Positions 13,003 to 55,736 of a stretch of DNA of 64,000 nt are shown piece after piece. Both the position numbers and the translations under genes were made by a program. Each line of letters opens with the position of its first letter. Position 1 is the stretch's first letter. Source of the DNA: an uncultured Anaeroplasmatales bacterium (GTDB lineage Bacteria; Bacillota_I; Bacilli_A; Acholeplasmatales; JAEDCM01); contig CAZWLD010000004.1 in NCBI GenBank assembly GCA_964634685.1, positions 12,430 to 76,429 on the forward strand. The letters run 5' to 3'. The notes below the pieces were generated by a model. That model did not search any database. It was not told the origin of the DNA and was given only the letters and a program-made list of their open reading frames with translations.

Positions 13003-13085
13003 TTTGTAAACGCATTCTTTCTTGTATTATTAGCTATCTTGTTATATTATATATATAGCACATACAAAACGAGGAGGTTTTTTTG

Positions 13086-15488
13086 ATGAACTATAATCAT
13101 TTAGAAATAGAAAAGAAATGGCAAAAATATTGGGAAGAGCATCAAACCTTTTACACTGATGTTTGGGATTTTTCAAAGCCGAAATTTTATTCAATCGATA
13201 TGTTCCCATATCCTTCCGGTCAAGGACTTCATGTTGGTCATCCAGAAGGCTATACTGCTTCTGATATCATTTGTCGAAAGAAAAGAATGGAAGGATATAA
13301 TGTTCTTCATCCGATGGGATGGGATGCCTTTGGACTTCCAGCTGAGCAATATGCAATAACGACCGGAAATCATCCTGATGGATTTACGAAAAAGAATATC
13401 GATACATTCACTCGCCAGTTAAAGATGTTAGGCTTCTCTTTTGATTGGAGTAAAGAAATTTCTACCTGCGATCCAAAATATTATAAATGGACGCAATGGA
13501 TTTTTAAGCAATTATATAACGATGGCTTGGCTAAGCAAATTGATATGCCAGTTAACTGGTGTGAGGAATTAGGAACTGTTTTGGCCAATGATGAGGTTAT
13601 CGATGGAAAAAGTGAGCGTGGAGGCTATCCGGTTGAAAGAAAGAATATGAAGCAATGGGTATTAGATATTCCGGCCTATGCTGAACGTCTATTAGCTGGT
13701 CTTGATGACTTAGACTGGCCAGAATCAACGAAGGAAATGCAAAGAAATTGGATTGGAAAATCGGTCGGAGCCCATGTTAATTTTAAGGTTAATGGAACTG
13801 ATGATTCCTTTACTGTCTTTACAACACGCTGTGATACCTTATTTGGCGCAACCTATTGTGTTTTAGCTCCAGAGCATAGGTTAGTTGATAAAATAACAAC
13901 TGATGAATGCCGTGAAAATGTTTTAGCGTATAAAAAGGTTTGCGCAACCAAATCTGATTTAGAGCGCACCGAGCTAAACAAAGAAAAAACGGGAGCCTTT
14001 ACAGGAGCCTATGCTGTTAATCCGGTTAACGGAAAGCTGATTCCGATTTGGATTAGCGATTATGTTTTAGCTAGCTATGGTACCGGCGCCATTATGGCTG
14101 TTCCAGCTCATGATTCGCGTGATTATGCTTTTGCTAAAAAATTTAATCTTGAAATTATTCCGGTTCTCGAGGGTGGAAATATTGAAGAGGAGGCCTTTGA
14201 GGATGATGGAATCCATATCAATTCTGGTTTCCTTAACGGTTTAGGCAAACAAGAGGCTATCGATAAAATGATTGAATTCTTGGAAGAAAATAAAATTGGT
14301 AAGAAAAAGATTAGCTATCGCTTAAGAGAATGGATTTTTGCTCGTCAAAGATATTGGGGAGAGCCAATTCCGGTTATTCATTTTGATGATCATGATGAGG
14401 CTCTAGATGATGATGAGCTTCCGCTTGTTTTACCAGTTTTAGATGATTATAAGCCTAAAAAATCAGGCTCTGCACCACTTGAAAATGCCAGCGATTGGGT
14501 TAATGTTTGTAAAAACGGTCAAAAGGGAAGAAGAGAAACGAATACGATGCCAGGTTCTGCAGGTTCAAGCTGGTATTTCCTAAGATATATTGACCCAAAT
14601 AATGATGAATGTTTGGCTGATAAGAAATTACTTGAGCATTGGATGCCTGTTGATTTATATATCGGTGGACCTGAGCATGCGGTCGGACATTTGTTGTATT
14701 CCCGCTTCTGGACAAATTATTTATATGATAAGGGCGTTGTTCCGGTTAAGGAGCCTTTCCAAAAATTGTTCCATCAAGGAATGATTTTAGGAGAAAACAA
14801 TGAGAAGATGAGTAAATCTCGCGGTAATGTTATTAATCCTGATGATGTGGTAAGAGAATATGGTGCCGATACCCTACGTTTATATGAAATGTTTATGGGA
14901 CCACTTGAGGCTTCGTTGCCTTGGTCTTCAAAGGGCTTAGAAGGATCACGTAAATTTCTTGATCGTGTTTTCCGTTTCATAACTAACGAGGAATATACAA
15001 ATAAATTTACATCTGAATATGATTCATCATTAGAAATTATTTATAATCAAACGGTTAAAAAGGTCACAAATGATTTTGATTCCTTGAATTTTAATACGGC
15101 TATTTCCCAAATGATGATTTTTATGAATGAGGCTTATAAGGCTGATAAGGTATATATAGGCTTTGTGGAGGGCTTTGTAAAAATGTTATCCTGTATAACT
15201 CCGCATCTTGGTGAGGAATTATGGCAAATTTTAGGTCATGATAATACGATCGCCTTTGAGCCTTGGCCAACCTATGATGAGGCGAAGACGGTCTTAAATG
15301 AAGTCACAATTGTTGTTCAGGTTAATGGAAAGGTCCGCGATAAATTAATTGTTCCGATGAACTCGAGCGCTGATACAATTAAGGAATTAGCTCACAAATC
15401 AGAAAGAATTATGGCTTATACTGCTGGCAAAGAAATTGTTAAAGAAATTGTTGTGCCAAATAAGCTATACAATATTGTTGTTAAGTGA
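13086..15488 (+). CDS. leuS: leucine--tRNA ligase
   Basis: HIGH motif (HVGHP), KMSKS motif and a full-length class I LeuS pattern. RBS GAGGAGG lies 8 nt before ATG 13086. Confidence 0.97.
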
Positions 15489-44727: not shown

Positions 44728-44756
44728 TTGAAAAGAGAAAAAAAATAAGATATAAT
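44728..44756 (+). promoter_or_regulatory. candidate promoter of the sensor operon
   Basis: TTGAAA, 17 nt, then TATAAT, located 27 nt upstream of ATG 44783. Confidence 0.4.
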
Positions 44757-44782
44757 TGAGACAAGAGATGGGAGGGACAAAT

Positions 44783-46438
44783 ATGCGAAATGAAGTCAAA
44801 AAAAATATAGTATATATTGGCTGCTTTGTTGTTTTTTTGATAGCTGGTTTTTTTCAAGGTATTGATACTTATTTGCCCTATCCATATGATAGCTTTTTAA
44901 AAGTATCATCAAACCTTTTGTTTTTTTCGCTTTTAATTATTTGGACTCTTTCAATTAAAAATAGAATCATTCAAAAATCAACGAGAATGTCTCTTTTATT
45001 CATTGCCTGCTGTTTATTTTTTTGGATGATTCTTCGCTTTTATAAATATTACCTTTATTTAGGGGGACCTTTAATAGAGCGAATAATATGGTACCTATAC
45101 TATTTCCCTCAGCTTTTCGTTCCTCCAACGATGATTCTAGTTTCTTTGGGAATTGAAAGGAAAAATAATCAACCCTTAAAAAAATATTGGTATTTGCTTT
45201 ACCTTCCTGCCTTTGTTTTGTTTTCCTTTATCATCACCAATGAATTCCATCAATTAGCTTTTTCGATCTATCCAAAGACAGAATATACTTATTCATATAA
45301 GCATGAAATCATTTATTATTTAGCAATTGTTTGGATTTGCCTTACTATACTTTTAAGTATCATTGTTTTTACTGTTAAATCTTCCTTATCAACCGCAAGA
45401 AAAAAGGCTTGGATTCCAGTTTTTACAATCGTTTTTGCCTTTGTGTTCATCTTTATTAATTTTCAAATCGGCCATTTTTTTTATAATGATCCAGAATTGA
45501 TATCTTTCTTCTGTATTTTAATTATTGAAAGCTGTATCTACATTGGCTTGATTCCATCAAATGATAATTATGCTAATTATTTTAGGATTTCTAAAGCCTC
45601 AGCTATGATTGCGGATAATGATAATGAGATTGTCTATTTATCAAATAATTCGATTGATATTTCGAAAGAACAAATGGCCTCCGCAATTATCGATCCTCTT
45701 TATCTTGATGAAAATACGATATTATCCTCAAATAGAATTAATGGTGGTAATGTTTTTTATGTTGAGGATATCACAGAAATTAATGAATTAAATTCAGAAA
45801 TGAAACGAATTAATGAAAAGCTTGAGATGGAGAATTCATTAATCAAGGATGCTAATAAATTAAAAGAAAAAGAATTGCGAATTAATGAGCAAAATAAAAT
45901 ATATGATTCGGTTTCGGAATCAATCCATAACGAATTAAATATCGTTAATGATATTCTTAAGCAAACCTCGGCCCATAATGATGATTTTGAAATGAGAATA
46001 CGTTTGTCTTGCCTTTATATAGCATACATTAAAAGACTCAGTAATTTGATTGTTTCTAATTATGATAATGATTTGGTTAATTCAAAGGAATTAGAATATG
46101 CTTTAAAGGAGTCAGTTGATTATTTATCATTATGTGGCGTTGATTGTTCATTGTTAGCCTTTTGTGAGGATTTGGTTCCTATCCGAGTTATTAAAATGCT
46201 ATATTTGTTTTTCCAAACCTGTATTATTAAAGCTCTCCCTTCCTTATGCGCTATTATTGTAAGCTTGACAATTAATAAAAAAATCGTTTTTCGAATAACA
46301 TGTGATAATGCTAAAGCTTCTATAGATTCCTCGTTTTGTCAAGATGAGTTAGATAAGCTTGGTGGAAGTATTACGATTGAACAGCAGGATGATACGACAT
46401 ATTCAACCTTGTCTTTTGATTTGGGTGGTGATAAATGA
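44783..46438 (+). CDS. 8-TM sensor protein with a degenerate histidine-kinase C-terminus (probable pseudokinase)
   Basis: RBS GGGAGGG. About eight hydrophobic helices, a coiled-coil and a DHp-like SIHNELN motif. The CA-like tail (LGGSITIEQQDDTTYSTLSF) lacks recognisable N and G1/G2 boxes. Confidence 0.7.
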   Translation: MRNEVKKNIVYIGCFVVFLIAGFFQGIDTYLPYPYDSFLKVSSNLLFFSLLIIWTLSIKNRIIQKSTRMSLLFIACCLFFWMILRFYKYYLYLGGPLIERIIWYLYYFPQLFVPPTMILVSLGIERKNNQPLKKYWYLLYLPAFVLFSFIITNEFHQLAFSIYPKTEYTYSYKHEIIYYLAIVWICLTILLSIIVFTVKSSLSTARKKAWIPVFTIVFAFVFIFINFQIGHFFYNDPELISFFCILIIESCIYIGLIPSNDNYANYFRISKASAMIADNDNEIVYLSNNSIDISKEQMASAIIDPLYLDENTILSSNRINGGNVFYVEDITEINELNSEMKRINEKLEMENSLIKDANKLKEKELRINEQNKIYDSVSESIHNELNIVNDILKQTSAHNDDFEMRIRLSCLYIAYIKRLSNLIVSNYDNDLVNSKELEYALKESVDYLSLCGVDCSLLAFCEDLVPIRVIKMLYLFFQTCIIKALPSLCAIIVSLTINKKIVFRITCDNAKASIDSSFCQDELDKLGGSITIEQQDDTTYSTLSFDLGGDK

Positions 46439-47721
46439 TGAAGTTTTACGAGACGCCAATTGTTCTTCAGGAATACATATTAATTTTTTATACTATCTCC
46501 GCTTTATTAATGGTTATTAACTTAATCAATCAGGTTATATTAAAGTGGAATCTAAAAACGATTGCTTTGTTTGTTGTTTTAATCGTAAATGATGCTTTTT
46601 TGACAATGCTTTTGATTGATGGAATGTATTATTATAATTATGGTTATGATGTAGATTTGATCTTGATGAAGGTCATTAGCACTCCATTATGGCTTATTAT
46701 CATTCTTTTAGTGCTTTATTTAGCCTGCGGAATTGCTTGTAGCTATTTTCTTCATCGCTTTCGCAAACGTAAACTATCGCCGATGTCGATTAAAGAAAGT
46801 ATTGATCATTTGCCGGTTGGTATTTGTATTTATTCTAATGAGGGTAAACCTCGATTAATCAATAGCATAATTAATGAGCTATGCTTACAAACTACCGGTA
46901 GGGCGTTATTAAATGCGAATACCTTCTGGAGTCTTTTAGAGGAAGGTAAGGTTTTAGAAGGCTGTCTTGTTATAAAGGATGGAATTAATCCGATTATTCG
47001 TTTTACAAATGATAAAACATATTCCTTTTCAAGGTATGAGCACAATATTGATGGAATGATGTTCTATGAAATTGTGGCGGTTGATGTTACAATGGAATCA
47101 GAATTAAATTCGAAATTGAAAGAGAAGAATTATGAGCTTTCACAAATCAATACAAGCTTAAAAAAATATGGTGAAAATATATTGGAATACACTCACGAAA
47201 AAGAAAAACTAGCGACGAAAATTCGTATTCATGATGATATGGGAAAGCTTCTGTTATTTACGAAAAAGCAGCTATCTGAGCCTTTAAATGAAAATCAAAA
47301 AAATGATTTATTGAACACTTGGAAGGATACGCTTTTGGAATTTGGAAAAATAAAGGACGATACGGAAAAAACCTTTGATGAATTAAAAATAGCTGCCCAA
47401 TCCTTGGGAGTTGAAATCATTTTTAGTGGAATAAACCCTGATTATGATTTGGTTAGAAGAATTGTTATTAGCGCGGGAATTGAATGTATGACTAATACGG
47501 TCGCCCACGGTGAAGGCAATAAATTATTCATTGATATACAAAAGGATGATAATTGGATTATTAGGTTGTGGAATAACGGAAAGAATCCAGATGGAGATAT
47601 TAAGGAAGGAACAGGGCTTTCCTCTTTACGAAATATTGTGGAAAGCGAAGGAGGAATTATGAATTTTCTGTATGAACCTCAGTTTACGTTAAAAATAATC
47701 CTTACAGGGGGGAAATTATGA
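46435..47721 (+). CDS. membrane histidine kinase, HisKA_3 type
   Basis: ATGA overlap with the upstream gene. H-box RIHDDMGKLL, N-box-like CMTNTVAHG, and G2 GTGLSSLRNIVESEGG. Confidence 0.8.
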   Translation: MMKFYETPIVLQEYILIFYTISALLMVINLINQVILKWNLKTIALFVVLIVNDAFLTMLLIDGMYYYNYGYDVDLILMKVISTPLWLIIILLVLYLACGIACSYFLHRFRKRKLSPMSIKESIDHLPVGICIYSNEGKPRLINSIINELCLQTTGRALLNANTFWSLLEEGKVLEGCLVIKDGINPIIRFTNDKTYSFSRYEHNIDGMMFYEIVAVDVTMESELNSKLKEKNYELSQINTSLKKYGENILEYTHEKEKLATKIRIHDDMGKLLLFTKKQLSEPLNENQKNDLLNTWKDTLLEFGKIKDDTEKTFDELKIAAQSLGVEIIFSGINPDYDLVRRIVISAGIECMTNTVAHGEGNKLFIDIQKDDNWIIRLWNNGKNPDGDIKEGTGLSSLRNIVESEGGIMNFLYEPQFTLKIILTGGKL

Positions 47722-48371
47722 AGGATGGAAAATACTTAGTAATGGTTGTGGAAGACCAGGAAATGCCACGTCAATTATTTGAACAATTCATTAAACAATC
47801 GGATTGCTTTTTGTTGGCAATTTCAATTGCCAATGCTGAATATGCGGAAATATATTGTATGAATAATGCAATTGATTTGATTTTAATGGATGTTTTTACA
47901 AAGGAAGGACAAAATGGTCTTCAAGCTGCCGAAAAAATCAAACGAAAATATCCACATATTAAAATAATCATCGTTACATCAATGCCTGAATGCTCCTACA
48001 TCGATCGAGCAAAGGCCATTGGGGTCGAGGGATTCTGGTATAAGGATACCAGCAAGGATACAATTCTTTCCTTGATGAATCGCGTAATAAAGGGTGAGAA
48101 TGTCTATCCCGAAATGTCACAACCCGTTATGATTGGTTTAGTAAATAGCACCGAATTCACGAAAAGAGAAATTGAAATTTTACGAGAAATGACGGGAGGC
48201 TATAGTAATCAGGAGATTGGGGAAAAGCTTGGTATATCGGTTAATGTTGTCAGAAATCACATTTCCAATATGCTTGAGAAAACTGGTTTTCGCTCACGAA
48301 CACAGCTAGCGGTAAAAGCAAGGTCCACGGGTTTGGTTATTTTAGATAAGTCCGAGGATGATATCGATTAG
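47718..48371 (+). CDS. NarL/LuxR-family response regulator
   Basis: Receiver domain (VVEDQ, LILMDV, IIIVTS, YK) plus a LuxR HTH (TKREIEILREMTGGYSNQEIGEKLGISVNVVRNHISNM). Confidence 0.9.
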   Translation: MKDGKYLVMVVEDQEMPRQLFEQFIKQSDCFLLAISIANAEYAEIYCMNNAIDLILMDVFTKEGQNGLQAAEKIKRKYPHIKIIIVTSMPECSYIDRAKAIGVEGFWYKDTSKDTILSLMNRVIKGENVYPEMSQPVMIGLVNSTEFTKREIEILREMTGGYSNQEIGEKLGISVNVVRNHISNMLEKTGFRSRTQLAVKARSTGLVILDKSEDDID

Positions 48372-48416: not shown

Positions 48417-48420
48417 TTAA

Positions 48421-48465
48421 GGGTTACAAATGTAACTACTCATCCTCATAAATTGATGATAGAAT
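48421..48465 (+). promoter_or_regulatory. operator-promoter copy A: GGGTTACAAATGTAACT palindrome plus an extended -10 TGATAGAAT
   Basis: GTTACA-AA-TGTAAC at 48423..48436 and TAGAAT at 48460..48465. The same 17-mer and the same spacing recur at 52436..52480. Confidence 0.6.
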
Positions 48466-48510
48466 ATGGCGATATCATAGATATAGAAATAATTAAGGAG
48501 GTATGTAGAT

Positions 48511-51500
48511 ATGAATAGATTTACGAAAAGCATAGGAAAAATCTTTTTCTTACTATGCTTATTATTAACCGTATCTTTAGCGGTAAATAGTAATCCTGGC
48601 AAAGTGTATGCTGCTGATGCCGAAGGTATTAGCGTTACTCGTGACAATACGGATGGAACTAAGACGGGATCAGGATGGACCTGGACAAAAACAGGTAGTA
48701 ATCAGTCAGGAAAATTATCTTTAAACGGCTATAACGGTGGAAGAATTGCAATTGGAGGTCCGGTTGGAGATACTGAAATTGAACTTATAGGAGACAACAC
48801 GGTTACTGTTACCGAGCCATATATTGATGGTGGTAATATCTGCTATGGGATTATCGTTTGTAATGCTCAAAACCTCACATTTAGTGGAAGTGGAACCCTC
48901 ACTATAAATGTTATGGCAACTTCAATGGTGAAGGTTTGTGGCGTTTATATTTATAAGGATAACGCTGTATCTTTAGGAAATCTTGTTTTTAGCGAAGGTA
49001 CAGTAAGCATTAATGTTACGTGCTTGAATTTGTCAGATGGAGGCGGAGCATACGGCATCAATTCATATGAAATGACAACCGGTGGATCCGTTACTGTTTC
49101 TGAAAATGCAACCCTTAAGATTGACTTGAAGTCTGATTATTATGGCAATGCATATGGAGTTTATTCATACGGAGATATCATATTAAATGGAACAGTTAGT
49201 TCGAAAATGGAGTATACAGGATCTAGTAATCCGAATAATTATTGGAGAGATTTTTCTTCTAATAGTTCACAAAATGTGATTGGTCTAAATGCAATTATTG
49301 ATTCGTATAATCCTGGTACAAGTGGAACATTATTAGGTTATTTTGCACTTGAAGCTAATAGCAATACAAAGATTGAAACTTGGACTTTAGTAGGATCAGA
49401 AGAAAAGTATTTTGAAAATGATAATTGCTTTGTCCATATTTCTGAAGTGAATGTTTACAGTGGATATGCAAGGTATTCATATCGTAAAATAGAGACTCCA
49501 CTTACCTTTGAGGATAAGGATGAATATGATATTCCAGAGATTGTATATGGTAATGAGGCATATTCAGCTCCTTTTGTCGCAACTGGTGGTAGTGGAGAAT
49601 ATACCTATACAATATATAGTGTTGCAAATGGTAATCAAACAGGTCTTAGAATTGTTGATAACAAATTATGCTCATCTGGTAGAGGAGTAAGTGAAGCTAC
49701 AACCTGTACGATTCAGGTAATGGATAAGGGTGGATACACAAAATACATCATTGTCAATATTGGTGCGGTTGTTGCGCCAACCTATAGTGCTACTGTTGAT
49801 GATATCGATTTTGGTACCGTTAAACCTGGATATGAATCAGTTACTGCCGTTCCTATTAATATTCATAATACAGGTACTGGAAATATAAAAATTATTTCTA
49901 ATAGTTCAGTATATCTCAGTAGTCAAAGTTATTTTATTTTAACATATGATAGTGTGCCATCATTAATTAATGGTGGTGAAACAAACACAAGCTGGAGTAT
50001 CAAACCTAAGGATGGCTTATCAGTTGGTACATACACCGTGACGATAACATTTAGAGGTACACCAGAATTACCAGGATTTTCAGGTGAAATCCAAGTTTCC
50101 GCAAAAGTTACTTTTGTTGTAAGTGACCATAATTTTGATACATCAAAATGGGAACATGATGATGAAAAGCACTGGAATCCATGTAAGGATGCTTTATGTA
50201 CTGCTCATGGTAATGAAGCTTTACACGATAAAGATGGTGAATTAACAGGTTATTATCCTGCAACTGAAGAAACAAATGGATATACTGGTGATAGGCATTG
50301 CTCAGTGTGCGGAGCTATATCTGAATATGGAGAAGTTATTTTTGCTAACAAGATTAATAGTGTTGAATTAGGATTTTCATCAGGAACTGATGAAATGATT
50401 GTTAGAGGAAGTAGTTATAATTTTAAGGCAAAAGTTATTGGCACAGGTTCTTTTGATAACACGATTAAGTGGATTGTAGAAGGCGGTTCGACAGGTACAA
50501 CTATATCGTCTGATGGTGTATTAACAGTAGCAGCAAACGAGGTTAATTCAACCATTACGATAAAAGCAGTTGCCAATGGCGATAATGAAGTCTTTGCCAC
50601 AAAAGTCCTTGATGTTTATTCAGAAGTAACTATTGTTAATGGAACTGAAACAACAGATTATTATTTAGTAGGTCAAACTATTGATCTTGCGGCTATAGAG
50701 GCAAGCGAAGGATATCATTTTAAAAACTGGACTAAAGATGGCTATGGATCCTTTACTAACGATAAAGCTAAAAATGCTCAGTTTATTGTCGCAAATTCCA
50801 ATGTAACTATTACATCAAATTATGAATTACATTATACAAATGATACAGTATGGACACATAATGCAACAAGTCATTACCATTTCTGTATATGTGGAGAAAA
50901 AATTGATATTGAAGATCATGTTTATGATAATGATGTAGATACAACTTGTAATGTTTGCGGATATGAAAGACCAGCCCATACTCATACAGCTGATAGTGAA
51001 TGGCATTATGATAATGATAATCATTGGCATATTTGTACAATTAATGGTTGTACCGAAAAGCTTAATGTTGAGGAGCATTCCTTTGGCAATTGGACGGTTA
51101 CAGTAGAGCCACAGGTTGGTGTTGCTGGTGAAAAGAAACGTGAATGTACAATTTGTGGATATAGTGAAACCGCTCCTGTTGATGCCCTTATCGAACAAAT
51201 CACTGTAACAGTTAATGGAGGAAAAGTTAATGGTGGCGCAAGTGTAACAGTTGACAAGAATGGTTCCGTTACAGTTGTTGCGGATTCAGCTCCAGAAGGA
51301 AAAGAATTTAAAGGCTGGAGTAAGGATGGTGGAGAAACAATCCTAAGTGAGGATTCAAGCTATACCTTCAACGCAACCGAAAATGTTACACTTACAGCGA
51401 TTTATAAGGATATAAAATCAAAAGGACTTTCTGGTGGTGCCATTGCTGGAATTGTAATTGGCAGTGTTGTTGTTATCGGAATCGGAGGATTTTCTATTTT

Positions 51501-51558
51501 TTGGTTTGGTATTAAGAAAAAGAAGTTCACAGACCTTCTAGCAGTTTTTAAAAAGTAA
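48511..51558 (+). CDS. 1015-aa surface protein: signal peptide, beta-helix-like repeats, Ig-like/Listeria-Bacteroides-type repeats, three His/Cys modules, C-terminal TM anchor
   Basis: The signal sequence ends in VYA/AD. Repeats follow a G(V/I)Y...(L/V)T(F/V)S..GT(L/V).I pattern. G.HFKNW and FKGW repeat signatures are present. His/Cys modules lie at 50128..50313, 50830..50964 and 50977..51162. The C-terminal hydrophobic helix is followed by KKKK, with no LPXTG motif. Confidence 0.85.
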   Translation: MNRFTKSIGKIFFLLCLLLTVSLAVNSNPGKVYAADAEGISVTRDNTDGTKTGSGWTWTKTGSNQSGKLSLNGYNGGRIAIGGPVGDTEIELIGDNTVTVTEPYIDGGNICYGIIVCNAQNLTFSGSGTLTINVMATSMVKVCGVYIYKDNAVSLGNLVFSEGTVSINVTCLNLSDGGGAYGINSYEMTTGGSVTVSENATLKIDLKSDYYGNAYGVYSYGDIILNGTVSSKMEYTGSSNPNNYWRDFSSNSSQNVIGLNAIIDSYNPGTSGTLLGYFALEANSNTKIETWTLVGSEEKYFENDNCFVHISEVNVYSGYARYSYRKIETPLTFEDKDEYDIPEIVYGNEAYSAPFVATGGSGEYTYTIYSVANGNQTGLRIVDNKLCSSGRGVSEATTCTIQVMDKGGYTKYIIVNIGAVVAPTYSATVDDIDFGTVKPGYESVTAVPINIHNTGTGNIKIISNSSVYLSSQSYFILTYDSVPSLINGGETNTSWSIKPKDGLSVGTYTVTITFRGTPELPGFSGEIQVSAKVTFVVSDHNFDTSKWEHDDEKHWNPCKDALCTAHGNEALHDKDGELTGYYPATEETNGYTGDRHCSVCGAISEYGEVIFANKINSVELGFSSGTDEMIVRGSSYNFKAKVIGTGSFDNTIKWIVEGGSTGTTISSDGVLTVAANEVNSTITIKAVANGDNEVFATKVLDVYSEVTIVNGTETTDYYLVGQTIDLAAIEASEGYHFKNWTKDGYGSFTNDKAKNAQFIVANSNVTITSNYELHYTNDTVWTHNATSHYHFCICGEKIDIEDHVYDNDVDTTCNVCGYERPAHTHTADSEWHYDNDNHWHICTINGCTEKLNVEEHSFGNWTVTVEPQVGVAGEKKRECTICGYSETAPVDALIEQITVTVNGGKVNGGASVTVDKNGSVTVVADSAPEGKEFKGWSKDGGETILSEDSSYTFNATENVTLTAIYKDIKSKGLSGGAIAGIVIGSVVVIGIGGFSIFWFGIKKKKFTDLLAVFKK

Positions 51559-51699: not shown

Positions 51700-52155
51700 A
51701 TGTCTTCAATTGATCGTAATGGATTATCTAATTCGACTAAGTTTCGAAATTATTGTTTTTCTAATTCGACGTTGTCTGAATGGACAAATGAGTGGATGAA
51801 ACCAAAAATTGTGGAAGGGATAATCAATAAAGATTATGAACTTTTATATTCTTTTATCGAAGATTATAGCGATAGAATTGATGTTGATAATTCATTGCTG
51901 TTAATTGAATTATATAAAAGTGTACAACAAGATTTTAAATTCTTGGAAAGAAAAGAATTAGATGTTTTATATCACTGTGAAGAACCTGTATTTTTGGATA
52001 GGAAATTTGAGTATGGATTGATTTATTTGGCTCATAAAAATAAATTGCCTAATGAGCAAAATATCCTTTTTGAGCGTTTTTTAGTAGTAAATTCGTCAAT
52101 AAATTTTTATGATGATTTTTTTATATCTAAAATGAAAAGAGAATTAATGAACTAA
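51700..52155 (+). CDS. hypothetical protein
   Basis: 151-aa ORF with no convincing RBS and no recognised motif. Confidence 0.4.
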   Translation: MSSIDRNGLSNSTKFRNYCFSNSTLSEWTNEWMKPKIVEGIINKDYELLYSFIEDYSDRIDVDNSLLLIELYKSVQQDFKFLERKELDVLYHCEEPVFLDRKFEYGLIYLAHKNKLPNEQNILFERFLVVNSSINFYDDFFISKMKRELMN

Positions 52156-52435
52156 TTGTAATAAAGAGTCCCCAACAAGGAGGATTCTTTTTTTATGGTG
52201 TTAAATAATTTGAAATTATTATCGACATCTTATTCAATAGAAAGAAGTTTAATCAAAATGTTTTATGGAATTAAAAAGGGTAGAACCTTTTTTATGCATA
52301 CAATCCCTTCGTATTTGGTAATCAGTTGTTTATGTCAATTCCATTATACAAAGGAAGCTTTTTGCTGAAAGATTTACTCCGATTATTTTATTATTTATAT
52401 ATTTTTTGATATAAACTTTAATAAAATGAAGGAAG

Positions 52436-52480
52436 GGGTTACAAATGTAACTCCTCTCTTTTTTTTATTGATGATAAAAT
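52436..52480 (+). promoter_or_regulatory. operator-promoter copy B: GGGTTACAAATGTAACT palindrome plus an extended -10 TGATAAAAT
   Basis: GTTACA-AA-TGTAAC at 52438..52451 and TAAAAT at 52475..52480. The distance from palindrome centre to the -10 is identical to copy A. Confidence 0.6.
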
Positions 52481-52512
52481 AAGGTGAAATCTAAAGAAAG
52501 GAGAAAATTGTA

Positions 52513-52893
52513 ATGAAAAGAGTGATATTATCAATAAGCAATTCCTTAGTTAATGATGCTGTTAAAAATGCATTAAAGCAAGTGGGATATTTAGTTCAAT
52601 CAGTTCCTTCATATAAAACAGATGACGTTGTCAATTCCTGTGATGCTTTTTTTGCTAACCTTTTATTGATGGATGTTAATCGCGTTGGTTCAGATATCAA
52701 TGTTCGTCTTGAAACCATTGATAAGGTAAAAAAACAAAATCCGAAAATTAAAATTGCTTTGTTGTGTGATAATGTTTCAGATCCAGAAATAGCTTATAAG
52801 ATTAAACAAGCAAAAGAAGAAAAAATCATTGATTCATTTTTTTATGAATCGGTTAGTATGGATTATATGATTGATATCCTCGATTCATTGTAA
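52513..52893 (+). CDS. stand-alone receiver-like (pseudo-receiver) protein
   Basis: CheY-like length and pattern, with LLLMDV at the phospho-Asp position. However, the N-terminal acidic pair is replaced (ILSISNS), the T/S position is Cys (ALLCD), and no conserved Lys lies in FFYES. Confidence 0.6.
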   Translation: MKRVILSISNSLVNDAVKNALKQVGYLVQSVPSYKTDDVVNSCDAFFANLLLMDVNRVGSDINVRLETIDKVKKQNPKIKIALLCDNVSDPEIAYKIKQAKEEKIIDSFFYESVSMDYMIDILDSL

Positions 52894-52912: not shown

Positions 52913-53405
52913 ATGTTAAATTAGTTTTTGCTTTGACTTTAGTTATGATGATTTGTTCGATTATCCTTGTTGGTTGTGGTGAAAAGCAAGCCATTGCAAA
53001 AAAAAAATAGCTGCCGATGCTACTGCTCATGACCATTCCTATAATCTTTGGGAAGCTGATGAGGAAAATCATTATCAAGTATGTAGTGAAGGAAATTGTG
53101 AAGAAGAAGTTAATAGGGGACCACATAATTTTGATAATGGTACGGTTTTAGCCGTTGCGGATAGCGGAAAAAATGGCTTGAAGGTCTATACCTGTACTAC
53201 CTGTGGATATAAATCATATGTTTATTTTCCAATTGAAAAGACAGAGACTATTCAAAAAACCGCAACAATTACTTTTGAAGCGAATGGAGGTACTCCTGTA
53301 GCTCCAATAACTGCTAATGTTAGTTCGAAAATTGAAGAGTCTACTACAACTCTTCTACCCCTTGGATCAGCATCAAGCGGAATATTTAAGTCTTACCAAA
53401 AATAA
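52913..53405 (+). pseudogene. small lipoprotein with one His/Cys module and a Listeria-Bacteroides-type repeat, disrupted at an A10 tract (and possibly at its start)
   Basis: Lipoprotein signal KLVFALTLVMMICSIILVGC-GEKQAIAKKK ends at TAG 53008. In the next frame, AADATAHDHSYNLWEADEENHYQVCSEGNCEE...YTCTTCGY...TITFEANGGTPV runs to 53405. The ORF track shows only 53178..53405. Confidence 0.55.
52998..53007 (+). repeat. poly(A)10 homopolymer at the frame break of the small lipoprotein gene
   Basis: Counted directly. One extra A joins the signal-peptide frame to the downstream frame. Confidence 0.95.
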
Positions 53406-53423: not shown

Positions 53424-55736
53424 ATGCAAAAGAAATCAATTTTAAGCTTAGCCATTATGGCAATGTTAATCGTTGGATTAACCTTAACTGGTTGTGGCAA
53501 ATCGCACAAATATAACGAAAATTGGTCTTCTGATGCCGAAAATCATTGGCATGCTTGCGAAGATAAAAATTGCGATAAAAAGAAGGATGTTGCAACCCAT
53601 ACATTTGATGAAGGAGTAGTTACAGTTGAACCAGGTATTGGTACAAAGGGTGTAAAAACTTATACCTGTAGCGTATGTAATTACCAAAAAACGGAAGAGA
53701 TTCCAGCAATTGACCACACTCATGTGGCTGGAAGTACTTGGGAGAAAGATGCTACAAATCACTGGACTTTATGTACCTGTGGTGAAAAAATGGATGTGGC
53801 TGCCCATACATTTGATGAAGGAGTAGTTACAGTTGAACCAGGTATTGGTACAAAGGGTGTAAAAACTTATACCTGTAGCGTATGTAATTACCAAAAAACG
53901 GAAGAGATTCCAGCAATTGACCACACTCATGTGGCTGGAAGTACTTGGGAGAAAGATGCTACAAATCACTGGAATTTATGTGAATGCGGTGAAAAAATGA
54001 ATGTCGCAGTTCATATTTCTAGTGATTGGATTGTTGATAATGAACCAGATTATGGTGTTAAAGGTAACAGTCATAAGGAATGTACTGTTTGTGGATTTGT
54101 TCTTGAAGAAAAAGAGACTGATGCCCCTCCAGCTAAGGATGTAACCATTACTTATGATGTTGAATTAGATAAGACATATGATGGTACTCCGGTAGCCTTT
54201 AATATCGCTGATGTAGTTGTTTCTAATGGCGCAACTCCAGTAGCTGAATGGTATAAGGTTGATGGTGAAAGCAACGCTACGAAGATTGAAAATGTACCTG
54301 TTGATGCTGGAACTTATAAGTTATTACTAAAGACTTTAGGAACTGCTGAATGGAAGGAAGCAACCCTTTCAGTTGATGTTCTTATTTTCACAAAATTTGG
54401 TGAAATTGAAGTTACAAAGGTTTTAGATAAAGTTTATGATGGCGAAGCTGTTTCTTTAAGTGATTCGGATATTACTGGAAATAGTGATGATCTAAGCTAC
54501 ACTATCACTTGGTATAATTATACAACTGATCATCCTGATTATGTGCTTGCTGAAGCACCAAAGGATGCTGGAAATTATACAGTGAAGGTTGAAATGGCTG
54601 AAACAAATAATGTTAGTAAAGCTTCATTTGTTGTTAACTTTGATATTTCAAGACGTACATTGTATTATGGTCAAACATATGCATACGGAAATCCAAATTA
54701 TTTAAACCCAAATCTTACTTGGGAAATCGGTGATACTTATTCTAATAATGGCTTTAAATCTACAAATAAAGTAGAAGGTGATTATGTTGCAATCAATTTC
54801 TGCTTTGATAATATTTATGTTGGTTCAAATTTAAGTGTATTTAAAATTGACGAAGCAGCTTGTATTGCTCATAATAGTAAAGCTCATTTAAATTATGTCT
54901 TAGATACAGAGGTTAAACCAGTGATTGTTCCGAAGAAATTAACTAATCTTAATTTAGTAACGGAATATAACGGCGAAAAAGGAAGACCTAATTTTGTATT
55001 AACAGCTGCCGATGGAATATTTGAGGATGATGATGTAAGAGTAGTAATCTCTGGTAATGCTCTAAGCTGGGATGCTTTGACCGAATTAACATTATCCTTA
55101 GCTGACAACATTGTTGGTGATGAAACTATTTCCTTTGTTGAGGAAGGTGAGTACGCAAACTATGTCTTGACTCTTACTGGTGACTATGTTGGAACACTTA
55201 CAATTAATCAAAAGGTTTTAACTAATCTTGATTTACAAACATATTATGATGAAACAGCCGGAAGAACAAATTTTGTTTTAACTGAAGCTGATGGAATTGT
55301 GGCTGGTGAGTCCGTTTTTGTAAATATTTCAGGAGATAATTCCAGTGATTGGGGAGAAGGAGATTCATATGTCTTGCGTTTAAAGGGAACTGTTCAAGGT
55401 GAAGAAACTATTACTTTAGTTGAAAATGAAAATTCATCAAACTATATTTTAGTAGAAAAAGATGGTAGCGTTGGAACAATTACAATTAATCATTCTGTTA
55501 TTCTAAAGAATATTACCTTCAAGGCTTCTCAAGGAATATTTTCTAATCGATTTGGATTTAAAACTTGGATATTTTCGCTAACTAATGAGACAGGACTTGA
55601 AGCTGGTGATACTGTAAATATTAGTGTTAAAGTATTTGATAATAGCGGTAAAATTAGCTTAACAAAAGAGAATACTTCATTTAATAATAAGAAATATTTT
55701 ATTGGTAGTGGTTGCTATCTTGATTTAGATAACTAA
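53424..55736 (+). CDS. 770-aa surface lipoprotein with three tandem His/Cys modules and Ig-like repeats
   Basis: Lipobox LTGC. Modules lie at 53505..54095. Repeated segments of about 90 aa follow (KV/TYDG..V ... AG.Y pattern). Confidence 0.85.
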   Translation: MQKKSILSLAIMAMLIVGLTLTGCGKSHKYNENWSSDAENHWHACEDKNCDKKKDVATHTFDEGVVTVEPGIGTKGVKTYTCSVCNYQKTEEIPAIDHTHVAGSTWEKDATNHWTLCTCGEKMDVAAHTFDEGVVTVEPGIGTKGVKTYTCSVCNYQKTEEIPAIDHTHVAGSTWEKDATNHWNLCECGEKMNVAVHISSDWIVDNEPDYGVKGNSHKECTVCGFVLEEKETDAPPAKDVTITYDVELDKTYDGTPVAFNIADVVVSNGATPVAEWYKVDGESNATKIENVPVDAGTYKLLLKTLGTAEWKEATLSVDVLIFTKFGEIEVTKVLDKVYDGEAVSLSDSDITGNSDDLSYTITWYNYTTDHPDYVLAEAPKDAGNYTVKVEMAETNNVSKASFVVNFDISRRTLYYGQTYAYGNPNYLNPNLTWEIGDTYSNNGFKSTNKVEGDYVAINFCFDNIYVGSNLSVFKIDEAACIAHNSKAHLNYVLDTEVKPVIVPKKLTNLNLVTEYNGEKGRPNFVLTAADGIFEDDDVRVVISGNALSWDALTELTLSLADNIVGDETISFVEEGEYANYVLTLTGDYVGTLTINQKVLTNLDLQTYYDETAGRTNFVLTEADGIVAGESVFVNISGDNSSDWGEGDSYVLRLKGTVQGEETITLVENENSSNYILVEKDGSVGTITINHSVILKNITFKASQGIFSNRFGFKTWIFSLTNETGLEAGDTVNISVKVFDNSGKISLTKENTSFNNKKYFIGSGCYLDLDN
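53596..53973 (+). repeat. tandem duplication with a 207-nt period and a 171-nt perfectly identical core
   Basis: 53596..53766 is identical to 53803..53973, and the flanks diverge. The repeat duplicates one His/Cys module exactly. Confidence 0.92.

What the first reader, a model, noticed from the sequence alone, without database searches (positions are those of the whole stretch)
53505..54095. Recurrent extracellular His/Cys module (~45-62 aa) in four surface-protein genes, eight copies in this window
Module pattern: H-x(3-7)-W-x(3-6)-H-[WY]-x(2,3)-C-x(1-5)-C-x(5-9)-H-x-[FY]-x(8-20)-G-x(4-6)-C-x(2)-C-[GN]-[YFA]. Copies lie at 22967..23218 (LRR lipoprotein), 50128..50313, 50830..50964, 50977..51162 (1015-aa protein), 53028..53210 (broken lipoprotein), and three in tandem at 53505..54095 (770-aa lipoprotein). 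An example is HTFDEGVVTVEPGIGTKGVKTYTCSVCNYQKTEEIPAIDHTHVAGSTWEKDATNHWTLCTCGEKMDVAAH. Four Cys (a CxnC pair and a CxxC pair) plus three to four conserved His suggest one or two Zn sites or a disulfide-stabilised knuckle. The module always lies near the N-terminus, just after the signal or lipobox, or between Ig-like repeats. I cannot assign it to a named domain family from memory.
Basis: partly seen in the sequence, partly recalled or inferred. Interest (0 to 1): 0.7.

Follow-up and report, generated by a model that had tools for sequence, protein, structure and literature searches.

The report
Zinc-stapled stalk module of surface proteins
The repeated His/Cys module is real: it matches the predicted zinc-binding rod domains recently described in the Thomasclavelia ramosa IgA protease, belongs to a very large family with no database model, and most likely acts as a rigid, length-adjustable spacer next to the membrane anchor of surface proteins.

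Summary
Eight copies of a ~45-75 aa His/Cys module lie at the stated coordinates, in three surface-protein genes and one pseudogene of an Anaeroplasmataceae-like (wall-less) bacterium. No Pfam or NCBIfam model covers it. It is, however, clearly homologous (E 1e-22 to 3e-30) to ZBD1/ZBD2 (also called CTD2/CTD4) of the T. ramosa IgA protease. Three 2025 papers described those domains from AlphaFold models and SAXS as a possibly new zinc-binding, rod-like "periscope" fold.

A profile of the eight copies hits 27,380 protein clusters, with up to 64 copies per protein. An AlphaFold2 model of two modules (pLDDT 94.5) shows two three-stranded sheets per module and has no significant PDB fold match. 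Conservation over ~790 units points to two tetrahedral metal sites per module, not disulfides. Four ligands are ~100% conserved, Cys and His swap at ligand positions, and His5 of one module is replaced by Cys51 of the preceding one. I infer that each site sits at a sheet-sheet junction.

Arrays lie next to the anchor. A related strain has one fewer 207-nt module. Best reading: a zinc-stapled stalk module. It is a new member of a recently described but uncatalogued kind. Zinc binding itself is untested.

The parts
22829..24442 (+). LRR_5/BspA-type lipoprotein gene (537-aa ORF; the likely start is the MNIKK... Met, with lipobox LTSC). It carries one module directly after the lipobox.
   Evidence: ORF and translation. 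Pfam LRR_5 at 3.7e-65.
22958..23188 (+). Module copy 1, the 'ATCEH' variant: the second knuckle Cys is replaced by His. A mini-knuckle HEF...CPNCG follows, up to 23218.
   Evidence: The C26/H28 variant occurs in 186 of 786 family units.
48511..51558 (+). 1015-aa surface protein gene with an N-terminal signal peptide and a C-terminal TM helix plus KKKK tail. It carries three modules interleaved with Flg_new_2/Flg_new (InlB B-repeat) domains in the anchor-proximal half.
50122..50352 (+). Module copy 2 (A+B form with a longer hairpin).
   Evidence: domain E 1.4e-21.
50818..50970 (+). Module copy 3, the short form. Sheet A is followed by a minimal knuckle HVYDNDVDTTCNVCGY. The B hairpin is deleted, but H20, H38, C61 and C64 are kept.
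   Evidence: The same short form recurs in homologues (output).
50968..51198 (+). Module copy 4 (canonical A+B).
   Evidence: 3.5e-33.
52933..53405 (+). Pseudogene remnant of a module + Flg_new lipoprotein. It has three lesions: the start codon is ATG->ATA, there is a +2 frameshift in a poly-A tract (A10 at 52998-53007 against A8 in the related strain), and a ~1.5 kb deletion fuses it to the 3' end of a second lipoprotein gene.
   Evidence: Window 52418-53354 matches L004 1486-2420, and window 53360-53797 matches L004 3937-4374.
53019..53246 (+). Module copy 5, inside the pseudogene.
   Evidence: 6e-31. It is intact in the 328-aa orthologue of L004.
53424..55736 (+). 770-aa lipoprotein gene (lipobox LTGC). 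Three tandem modules follow the lipobox directly, then MBG-type repeats.
53493..54140 (+). Module copies 6-8 in tandem, each 69 aa.
   Evidence: domain E 4e-33, 3e-34, 5e-30. AlphaFold2 model of copies 7-8 has pLDDT 94.5.
53571..54008 (+). 207-nt DNA tandem repeat (2.1 copies, 93% identical), equal to one module. One unit is absent from the 701-aa orthologues.
48423..48436 (.). Palindromic motif GTTACAAATGTAAC, 75 nt upstream of the 1015-aa gene and just downstream of a LuxR-type response-regulator gene. It is context only; a link to the module is not shown.
52438..52451 (.). Second exact copy of the motif, 62 nt upstream of the 126-aa gene that precedes the pseudogene and the 770-aa gene.

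Best explanation
Each module is a pair of small three-stranded antiparallel beta-sheets. Sheet A is W...HW-x2-C-x1-4-C...H. Sheet B is H-x-[FWY]...G...C-x2-C. Together they correspond to subdomains II+III of the zinc-binding domains ZBD1/ZBD2 (= CTD2/CTD4) of the T. ramosa IgA protease.

The sheets stack end to end. Each sheet-sheet junction is clamped by one tetrahedral metal site, presumably Zn2+:
- Site II, at the A/B junction: His20 + His38 + Cys61 + Cys64.
- Site I, at the junction with whatever precedes sheet A: His7 + Cys24 + Cys29 (or Cys26 + His28), plus a fourth ligand. That ligand is either His5 of the same module or Cys51 from the tip of the preceding module.

The result is a thin, stiff rod with almost no hydrophobic core, roughly 7 nm per 69-aa module. 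It is placed directly next to the membrane anchor and holds the functional part of the protein (LRR, MBG, or the N-terminal head of the 1015-aa protein) away from the cell surface. Because tandem modules are near-identical at the DNA level, recombination can add or remove whole modules and so change stalk length.

Shown: homology, family size, the conservation pattern, ligand co-variation, anchor-proximal placement, and the copy-number difference between assemblies. Inferred: that the metal is zinc, the exact ligand pairing, rigidity, and the spacer function.
For: Homology:
- phmmer of the triple array against PDB sequences hits only 9qa6_A (IgA protease), E 1e-22, on residues 899-971 and 1054-1131.
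- A profile of two-module segments gives E 3.4e-30 on the same chain.
- Those residues are ZBD1/ZBD2. They are described as three-stranded up-and-down sheets linked by predicted 2His+2Cys sites at subdomain interfaces, ~110 A for 129 aa (PMC12237041). SAXS of isolated CTD2 shows an extended rod (PMC12415215).

Fold:
- AlphaFold2 with a 45-sequence alignment gives pLDDT 94.5, all-beta, six strands per module.
- There is no PDB fold match: best E 0.04, TM < 0.2.

Metal rather than disulfide:
- H20 is 99% conserved; H38, C61 and C64 are 100%; G55 is 99%; H7 is 88% (605 units).
- The knuckle alternates between C24..C29 (479 units) and C26-H28 (186 units), and 64% of units have exactly 8 ligands.

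Site geometry:
- H20 and C24 lie at opposite ends of strand 2, and C29 and H38 at opposite ends of strand 3. They therefore cannot share a site.
- H5/H7 are kept in first units that have no preceding CxxC. C61/C64 are kept in last units that have no following His.
- H5 of module n+1 anticorrelates with C51 of module n: OR 0.086, p 4e-44. This is stronger than within one unit (OR 0.16-0.18). It still holds where C51 differs between neighbouring modules (OR 0.31, p 0.001).

Stalk role:
- In 49 lipoproteins the array starts a median 14 residues after the lipobox Cys, with mean relative position 0.31. In 27 C-terminally anchored proteins the position is 0.59. Mann-Whitney p = 3e-9.
- The window follows the same rule. 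So does IgAse, where the ZBDs sit next to the sortase anchor.

Length variation: the 701-aa orthologues (90-92% identical) lack exactly one 69-aa module, and the DNA repeat is 207 nt at 93% identity.
Against: - No metal analysis or experimental structure of this fold exists, in the three papers read or here. 9qa6 contains the sequence, but Foldseek found no matching coordinates.
- I had no atomic coordinates. Ligand pairing is deduced from strand positions and co-variation.
- PMC12237041 reports a 3Cys+1His site in ZBD2. I could not map it onto my scheme.
- Co-variation counts are not corrected for relatedness of repeats within and between proteins.
- The placement statistics use the highest-scoring family members only.
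- The 701/770 difference comes from short-read metagenome assemblies, which can collapse repeats. One contig (L003) ends inside this repeat.
- PMC12237041 and PMC12402451 report flexible linkers between the C-terminal domains of IgAse. An array may therefore be segmentally stiff rather than one rigid rod.
Confidence: 0.7

Rival explanations
1. The module itself is a binding or adhesion unit. It would recognise a host or microbial ligand, or mediate zinc-dependent cell-cell association as the G5-E repeats of Aap/SasG do. The stalk would then be functional, not just a spacer.
For: - The module occurs in adhesin-like proteins: LRR_5/BspA, MBG, cohesin, dockerin and fn3 partners.
- Non-ligand surface positions are highly variable.
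- PMC12415215 leaves additional functions of CTD2/CTD4 open. PMC9704523 notes that stalk repeats can have functions beyond scaffolding.
Against: - All four coordination positions of each site appear to be filled by protein ligands. No free metal valence remains for Aap-like dimerisation, the same argument made in PMC12415215.
- The position is anchor-proximal rather than distal.
- The C-terminal domains of IgAse are dispensable for IgA cleavage (PMC12237041).
Confidence: 0.15
2. The four Cys form two disulfides. The module would be an EGF-like knotted unit, and the conserved His would serve another purpose.
For: The location is extracellular. Most units have two Cys pairs.
Against: - One Cys of a pair is replaced by His in 186 of 786 units, including window copy 1.
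- H20 and H38 are as invariant as the Cys.
- His5 and Cys51 are interchangeable.
- The hosts are strict gut anaerobes.
- No disulfides were seen or predicted in IgAse (PMC12237041).
Confidence: 0.06
3. The arrays act mainly as an extracellular zinc (or other metal) reservoir or buffer at the cell surface.
For: Site density is very high: two sites per ~69 aa, with up to 64 matched stretches per protein.
Against: - Cys2His2-type tetrahedral sites buried at domain junctions are typical structural sites, with slow exchange.
- There is no link to metal-transport genes in the window.
- Placement follows the anchor, as expected for a spacer.
Confidence: 0.04
4. The similarity is a chance or low-complexity coincidence of CxxC/His motifs, not a domain.
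For: Pfam reports only scattered sub-threshold hits to many unrelated zinc-knuckle families.
Against: - There are 0 full-pattern matches in 100 shuffles against 4 observed, and 8 core matches against 0.2 expected.
- 11,255 clusters match at E <= 1e-10.
- The predicted fold is confident.
Confidence: 0.01

Closest known systems
ZBD1/ZBD2 (= CTD2/CTD4; beta3, beta4, beta6 domains) of the Thomasclavelia ramosa IgA protease IgAse/ThomasA (UniProt Q9AES2; PMC12237041, PMC12415215, PMC12402451)
   Same: - Significant sequence homology (E 1e-22 and 3e-30).
- The same His/Cys ligand pattern.
- The same predicted architecture of three-stranded up-and-down sheets joined end to end (against the papers' models).
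- The same position next to the cell anchor, and the same partner domain (InlB B-repeat/Flg_new).
   Different: - The window proteins are lipoproteins or a TM-anchored protein of a wall-less Anaeroplasmataceae-like organism, not a sortase substrate. They carry no M64 protease.
- The modules here form near-identical tandem arrays with copy-number variation, which IgAse lacks.
- Variants occur here that the papers do not describe: the Cys->His knuckle, the hairpin-less short form, and Cys51 in place of His5.
Periscope proteins (SasG/Aap G5-E, Rib, SHIRT repeats; PMC9704523)
   Same: - Surface-anchored single-chain proteins with tandem repeats that are highly similar at the DNA level.
- A predicted rod shape and variable repeat number between strains.
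   Different: - The fold is unrelated.
- Rigidity would come from Cys/His metal clamps between sheets, not from hydrophobic interfaces or the Zn-mediated dimerisation of Aap.
- There are only 2-3 repeats here.
- The variation is seen only in short-read assemblies.
Zinc ribbons / rubredoxin knuckles and classical C2H2 zinc fingers
   Same: - A CxxC 'knuckle' in a beta-hairpin turn.
- Cys2His2 ligand sets.
- C-x2-C-x13-H-x-H spacing across module boundaries.
- PMC12237041 notes a distant resemblance of subdomain I to the TFIIS zinc ribbon.
   Different: - All Pfam hits to these families are below threshold, with no significant stretch.
- There is no helix, so it is not a beta-beta-alpha finger.
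- Each site has one Cys knuckle plus His from neighbouring sheets, rather than two knuckles.
- The context is extracellular and non-nucleic-acid.

Membership tests
IgAse ZBD / CTD2-CTD4-type zinc-binding beta-sheet domain | Sequence homology to ZBD1 (879-1008) or ZBD2 (1101-1171) of Q9AES2 | tested here: met
   phmmer E 1e-22, with two stretches on 9qa6_A 899-971 and 1054-1131. Profile E 3.4e-30.
IgAse ZBD / CTD2-CTD4-type zinc-binding beta-sheet domain | Subdomains made of three-stranded antiparallel up-and-down sheets arranged end to end | tested here: met
   AlphaFold2 model with pLDDT 94.5: 12 strands over two modules and no helix. The end-to-end packing itself could not be checked, because no coordinates were returned.
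IgAse ZBD / CTD2-CTD4-type zinc-binding beta-sheet domain | Four-ligand His/Cys sets, mostly 2His+2Cys, one per subdomain junction | tested here: met
   All eight window copies carry the ligands. Family conservation and compensatory Cys/His exchange are shown.
IgAse ZBD / CTD2-CTD4-type zinc-binding beta-sheet domain | Actual zinc occupancy | not testable with these tools
   Also not measured for the ZBDs in PMC12237041 or PMC12415215: 'ICP' does not occur in either text, and the sites are called putative.
Periscope proteins (PMC9704523) | Cell-surface-attached single-chain protein | tested here: inconclusive
   Lipoboxes LTGC, LTSC and LVGC, or a signal peptide plus a C-terminal TM helix, are read from the sequence. 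No experimental localisation exists.
Periscope proteins (PMC9704523) | Highly identical tandem repeat domains at the DNA level | tested here: met
   For the 770-aa gene only: 207-nt period, 2.1 copies, 93%. The modules of the other genes are diverged (25-40% identity).
Periscope proteins (PMC9704523) | Repeat-number variation between closely related strains | tested here: met
   Cluster members of 770 aa against 701/710 aa differ by exactly one module. Caveat: these are short-read assemblies, and L003 breaks inside the repeat.
Periscope proteins (PMC9704523) | Anisotropic rod in solution | not testable with these tools
   Shown by SAXS only for IgAse CTD2 (PMC12415215).
Classical C2H2 zinc finger (Pfam zf-C2H2 clan) | Beta-beta-alpha fold and a Pfam match above threshold | tested here: not met
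   No helix in the model. zf-C2H2/zf-H2C2_2 hits are below the gathering score, with 0 significant stretches.
Zinc ribbon / rubredoxin-like | Two CxxC knuckles per metal and a Pfam match above threshold | tested here: not met
   There is one Cys knuckle per site plus His ligands. On the window proteins and two-module segments, RUBY_RBDX, Zn_Ribbon_TF and similar families stay below their cut-offs. On long many-copy homologues their whole-protein scores exceed the cut-off only by summation, and no single stretch is significant.

The most novel reading that the evidence does not exclude
These modules define a very large, uncatalogued class of extracellular zinc-finger-like rods, apparently concentrated in strictly anaerobic gut bacteria (Clostridia, Erysipelotrichales, Anaeroplasmataceae, Treponema). 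Their stiffness, and therefore how far adhesins and enzymes project from the cell, would depend on ambient zinc and on the redox state of exposed Cys ligands. That would make them environment-responsive periscopes that collapse on oxygen exposure or on host zinc withholding.
Probability: 0.15. Interest if true: 0.7.

Novelty: new member of a known kind. Interest (0 to 1): 0.5.

Why it matters
Three 2025 papers treated this domain as a peculiarity of one enzyme. Here it turns out to be one of the larger protein-domain families still missing from Pfam and NCBIfam: 27,380 clusters at 50% identity, often with 10-60 copies per protein. It is spread over adhesin-, cohesin/dockerin-, LRR- and enzyme-bearing surface proteins of gut anaerobes.

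A curated model would annotate tens of thousands of 'hypothetical' regions and help delimit the functional heads of these proteins. The proposed principle is a core-less beta-sheet rod held together by a Cys/His metal clamp at every junction. That differs from known stalk domains and can be tested directly. Extracellular Cys-Zn sites are unusual, so the family may also say something about surface biochemistry under anoxia.

Tried and rejected
- The word-indexed search with the 8-copy profile returned only 11 short fragments. The exhaustive representative search was needed.
- Single-sequence AlphaFold2 of the triple array plus the MBG domain was useless (pLDDT 48). A homologue alignment fixed this.
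- My first ligand model was {H20, C24, C29, H38} plus {CxxC with the HxH of the next module}. I rejected it for two reasons. H20/C24 and C29/H38 sit at opposite ends of strands. H5/H7 and C61/C64 are also retained in terminal units.
- A second model was an intramodule clasp {H5, H7, C61, C64}. It fits the terminal-unit statistics but not the strand geometry, and it does not explain the stronger cross-module H5/C51 exchange.
- hhalign of sheet A against sheet B showed no significant homology (probability 5.5%; only the knuckles align). The two sheets are analogous, not demonstrably duplicated.
- The genome-contig scan did not find the source genome. It found only distant relatives in Butyrivibrio and Eubacteriales MAGs.
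- An exact look-up of the 770-aa protein found no contig on record.
- Literature searches for an independent description of the repeat found nothing beyond the IgAse papers.
Full report
**1. Is it there?**

Yes. The stated coordinates translate to the quoted peptides.

The host genes are:
- a 537-aa LRR_5/BspA lipoprotein (22829-24442);
- a 1015-aa protein with a signal peptide, Flg_new/InlB-B-repeat domains and a C-terminal TM anchor (48511-51558);
- a frame-broken small lipoprotein (about 52933-53405);
- a 770-aa lipoprotein with MBG repeats (53424-55736).

An HMM of the eight copies recovers exactly those eight in the six-frame translation and nothing else below E = 0.3. That test is circular by construction. 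Non-circular support comes from shuffling. The core H[WY]-x2-4-C-x1-5-[CH]-x5-10-H occurs 8 times against 0.2 expected. The regex is therefore too strict, since it misses four divergent copies, but the module is real.

**2. Is it in a database?**

No model covers it. Pfam and NCBIfam give only sub-threshold hits to assorted zinc knuckles. This holds for the window proteins and for 45 two-module segments. In ten strong homologues, a few knuckle families exceed their whole-protein cut-off only by summing many weak hits, and no single stretch is significant.

A sequence search of PDB chains gives a single, strong hit: 9qa6_A, 'IgA protease', E 1e-22, on residues 899-971 and 1054-1131. A profile gives 3.4e-30.

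These residues are ZBD1 and ZBD2 of the Thomasclavelia ramosa IgA protease. PMC12237041 describes them, from AlphaFold models only, as chains of three-stranded up-and-down beta-sheets. The sheets are linked by putative 2His+2Cys zinc sites at subdomain interfaces. [quoted passage not shown] PMC12415215 calls the same domains CTD2/CTD4. It shows by SAXS that isolated CTD2 is an extended rod and proposes an 'uncharacterized periscope domain fold'. PMC12402451 found little or no structural similarity to reported structures for the non-catalytic domains, these beta-sheet domains among them.

None of the three reports metal analysis or experimental coordinates for these domains. Consistent with that, Foldseek of my model against the PDB finds nothing (best E 0.04, TM < 0.2).

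**3. How big is the family?**

A profile of the eight copies, run against 1.84 billion cluster representatives, gives:
- 27,380 proteins at E <= 1e-3;
- 11,255 at E <= 1e-10;
- 1,588 at E <= 1e-30;
- up to 64 matched stretches in one protein.

Named relatives are all 'hypothetical protein', apart from one named for its dockerin repeat. They come from Faecalibacterium, Eubacteriales, Christensenellales, other Clostridia, Butyrivibrio and Treponema MAGs. Partner domains include fn3, cohesin, dockerin, LRR_5 and Flg_new. Two phage-labelled metagenomic proteins (SLH, LRR) carry the module too.

The window itself comes from an Anaeroplasmataceae-like organism. Its LeuRS is 79% identical to Anaeroplasmataceae MAGs and the GC content is 32%. 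That lineage is wall-less, which fits anchoring by lipobox or TM helix rather than sortase.

**4. Anatomy**

AlphaFold2 of window modules 7-8 with a 45-sequence alignment is confident (pLDDT 94.5). The model is all-beta with six strands per 69-aa module, i.e. two three-stranded sheets:
- Sheet A: strand 1 carries W13. Strand 2 is H20-W21-x2-C24. The knuckle is C24-x1-4-C29. Strand 3 ends at H38.
- Sheet B: strand 4, a hairpin with the invariant G55, strand 5 ending in C61, the knuckle C61-x2-C64, then strand 6.

This equals subdomains II+III of IgAse. hhalign does not show A and B to be homologous to each other.

**5. Metal or disulfide, and which ligands go together?**

Conservation over 605-786 non-identical units:
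- H20 is 99% conserved; H38, C61 and C64 are 100%; G55 is 99%; H7 is 88%; W13 and W21 are ~85%.
- The A knuckle exists in two interchangeable forms: C24..C29 (479 units) and C26-x-H28 (186 units, including window copy 1).
- 64% of units have exactly eight ligands.

A Cys replaced by His keeps a metal ligand but destroys a disulfide, so this argues for metal.

For the pairing:
- H20/C24 lie at opposite ends of strand 2, and C29/H38 at opposite ends of strand 3. The obvious 'H-C-C-H' grouping is therefore unlikely on geometric grounds.
- H5/H7 are kept equally often whether or not a CxxC precedes them. C61/C64 stay invariant even without a downstream His.
- In a meander of sheets stacked end to end, H20 and H38 (the top of A) meet the C61/C64 knuckle (the bottom of B). 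This is site II.
- H7 and the C24/C29 knuckle (the bottom of A) form site I. Its fourth ligand is either H5 or C51 from the hairpin tip of the preceding B sheet.
- The last point made a testable prediction, and the prediction held. H5 of module n+1 anticorrelates with C51 of module n (OR 0.086, p 4e-44). This is stronger than with C51 of its own module (OR 0.16). In pairs where neighbouring modules differ in C51, H5 follows the preceding module (OR 0.31, p 0.001).

The counts are not corrected for phylogenetic or repeat relatedness, and I had no coordinates. The assignment is an inference. It agrees with the papers' statement that the sites lie at subdomain interfaces. I could not place their 3Cys+1His site 8.

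**6. What is it for?**

Placement follows the anchor:
- In 49 lipoproteins of at least 500 aa, the first module begins a median 14 residues after the lipobox Cys, and the mean relative position is 0.31.
- In 27 proteins with a C-terminal LPXTG-like or TM anchor, the position is 0.59 (Mann-Whitney p 3e-9).
- The window obeys this rule. Modules lie directly after the lipobox in the three lipoproteins, and in the anchor-proximal half of the TM-anchored 1015-aa protein.
- In that protein they are interleaved with InlB-B-repeat domains. IgAse CTD1 is the same kind of domain (PMC12415215).

Scaling from the published ZBD1 model (129 aa, ~110 A), a module adds about 7 nm. This figure is an inference.

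In the 770-aa gene the modules form a 207-nt tandem DNA repeat (93% identity, 2.1 copies). Orthologues 90-92% identical have 701 aa and lack exactly one module. That is the behaviour that defines periscope proteins (PMC9704523). The caveat is that these are short-read assemblies, and one contig ends inside the repeat.

The best-supported mechanism is therefore a metal-clamped, anchor-proximal spacer of adjustable length. Confidence by step:
- homology is near certain;
- metal binding about 0.8;
- spacer function about 0.65.

**7. The locus is evolving fast.**

In a related strain (L004), two intact lipoprotein genes sit where the window has its 'broken lipoprotein'. They encode 328 and 334 aa, each organised as lipobox-module-Flg_new. 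Relative to that strain, the window copy has:
- lost its start codon (ATG->ATA);
- gained two A in a poly-A tract (A8->A10, 52998-53007);
- suffered a ~1.5-kb deletion fusing the two genes.

**8. The operator idea**

GTTACAAATGTAAC occurs exactly twice. One copy is 75 nt upstream of the 1015-aa gene. The other is 62 nt upstream of a 126-aa gene that heads the pseudogene and the 770-aa gene. The two sites share a wider conserved block, GGGTTACAAATGTAACT...ATTGATGATA.

A HisKA_7TM kinase, a 428-aa protein and a LuxR/NarL-type response regulator lie immediately upstream of the first site. The LRR lipoprotein gene has no such site. This is suggestive of co-regulation of part of the set. It is not a property of the module.

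**9. Verdict**

The module is not without precedent. It is the IgAse ZBD/CTD2-CTD4 fold, published in 2025 but still absent from Pfam and NCBIfam and never shown experimentally to bind metal.

What this analysis adds:
- the size and spread of the family;
- the ligand co-variation and the junction-clamp model;
- the anchor-proximal rule;
- copy-number variation.

Novelty: new member of a known, recently described and poorly characterised kind. Interest: moderate.

Noticed in passing
window 48423-48436 and 52438-52451 (wider block about 48420-48475 / 52435-52490): There are two exact copies of the palindromic GTTACAAATGTAAC, embedded in a longer shared upstream block (GGGTTACAAATGTAACT ... ATTGATGATA). 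The first lies directly downstream of a three-gene unit: a HisKA_7TM kinase (44756-46438), a 428-aa unknown (46435-47721) and a LuxR/NarL-type response regulator (47718-48371). It is a candidate operator for that regulator.
   Followed up: partly
window 52914-53405; L004 1974-3982: The 'broken lipoprotein' is a decayed fusion of two genes that are intact in a related strain (328 and 334 aa). Its start is ATG->ATA, a poly-A tract reads A10 against A8 (52998-53007), and ~1.5 kb is deleted. The same A10 frameshift is present in a second assembly (L003).
   Followed up: yes
window 53571-54008; L003 end (10345): The Logan contig L003 stops exactly inside the 207-nt module repeat. This shows that short-read assemblers struggle here. 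Module counts in public assemblies of this gene should be treated with care.
   Followed up: partly
window 22829-25489: The LRR_5 lipoprotein ORF ends at 24442. A second LRR_5 ORF with no signal sequence follows at 24665-25489. This may be one adhesin gene split by a frameshift or stop. Other members of its 90% cluster are only 186-191 aa.
   Followed up: no
window 52513-52893 and 51700-52155: Two small conserved ORFs (126 and 151 aa) sit between the module-bearing genes and have no Pfam or NCBIfam match. The 126-aa one sits directly behind the second operator copy and is conserved in the related strain.
   Followed up: no
whole window (e.g. LeuRS 13083-15488): The source organism is an uncultured Anaeroplasmataceae/Acholeplasmatales-like Mollicute: GC is 32% and the best named LeuRS relatives are 76-79% identical. 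The GTDB representative scan did not contain this genome.
   Followed up: partly
homologues P0010/P0011 and many representatives with matches to profile positions 35-77 only: Some family members consist of sheet-B units alone: ~37-aa repeats H-x-W...ATC...C-x2-C, giving 3Cys+1His per junction. The minimal repeating unit of the family is therefore one sheet plus one knuckle, not the A+B module.
   Followed up: partly
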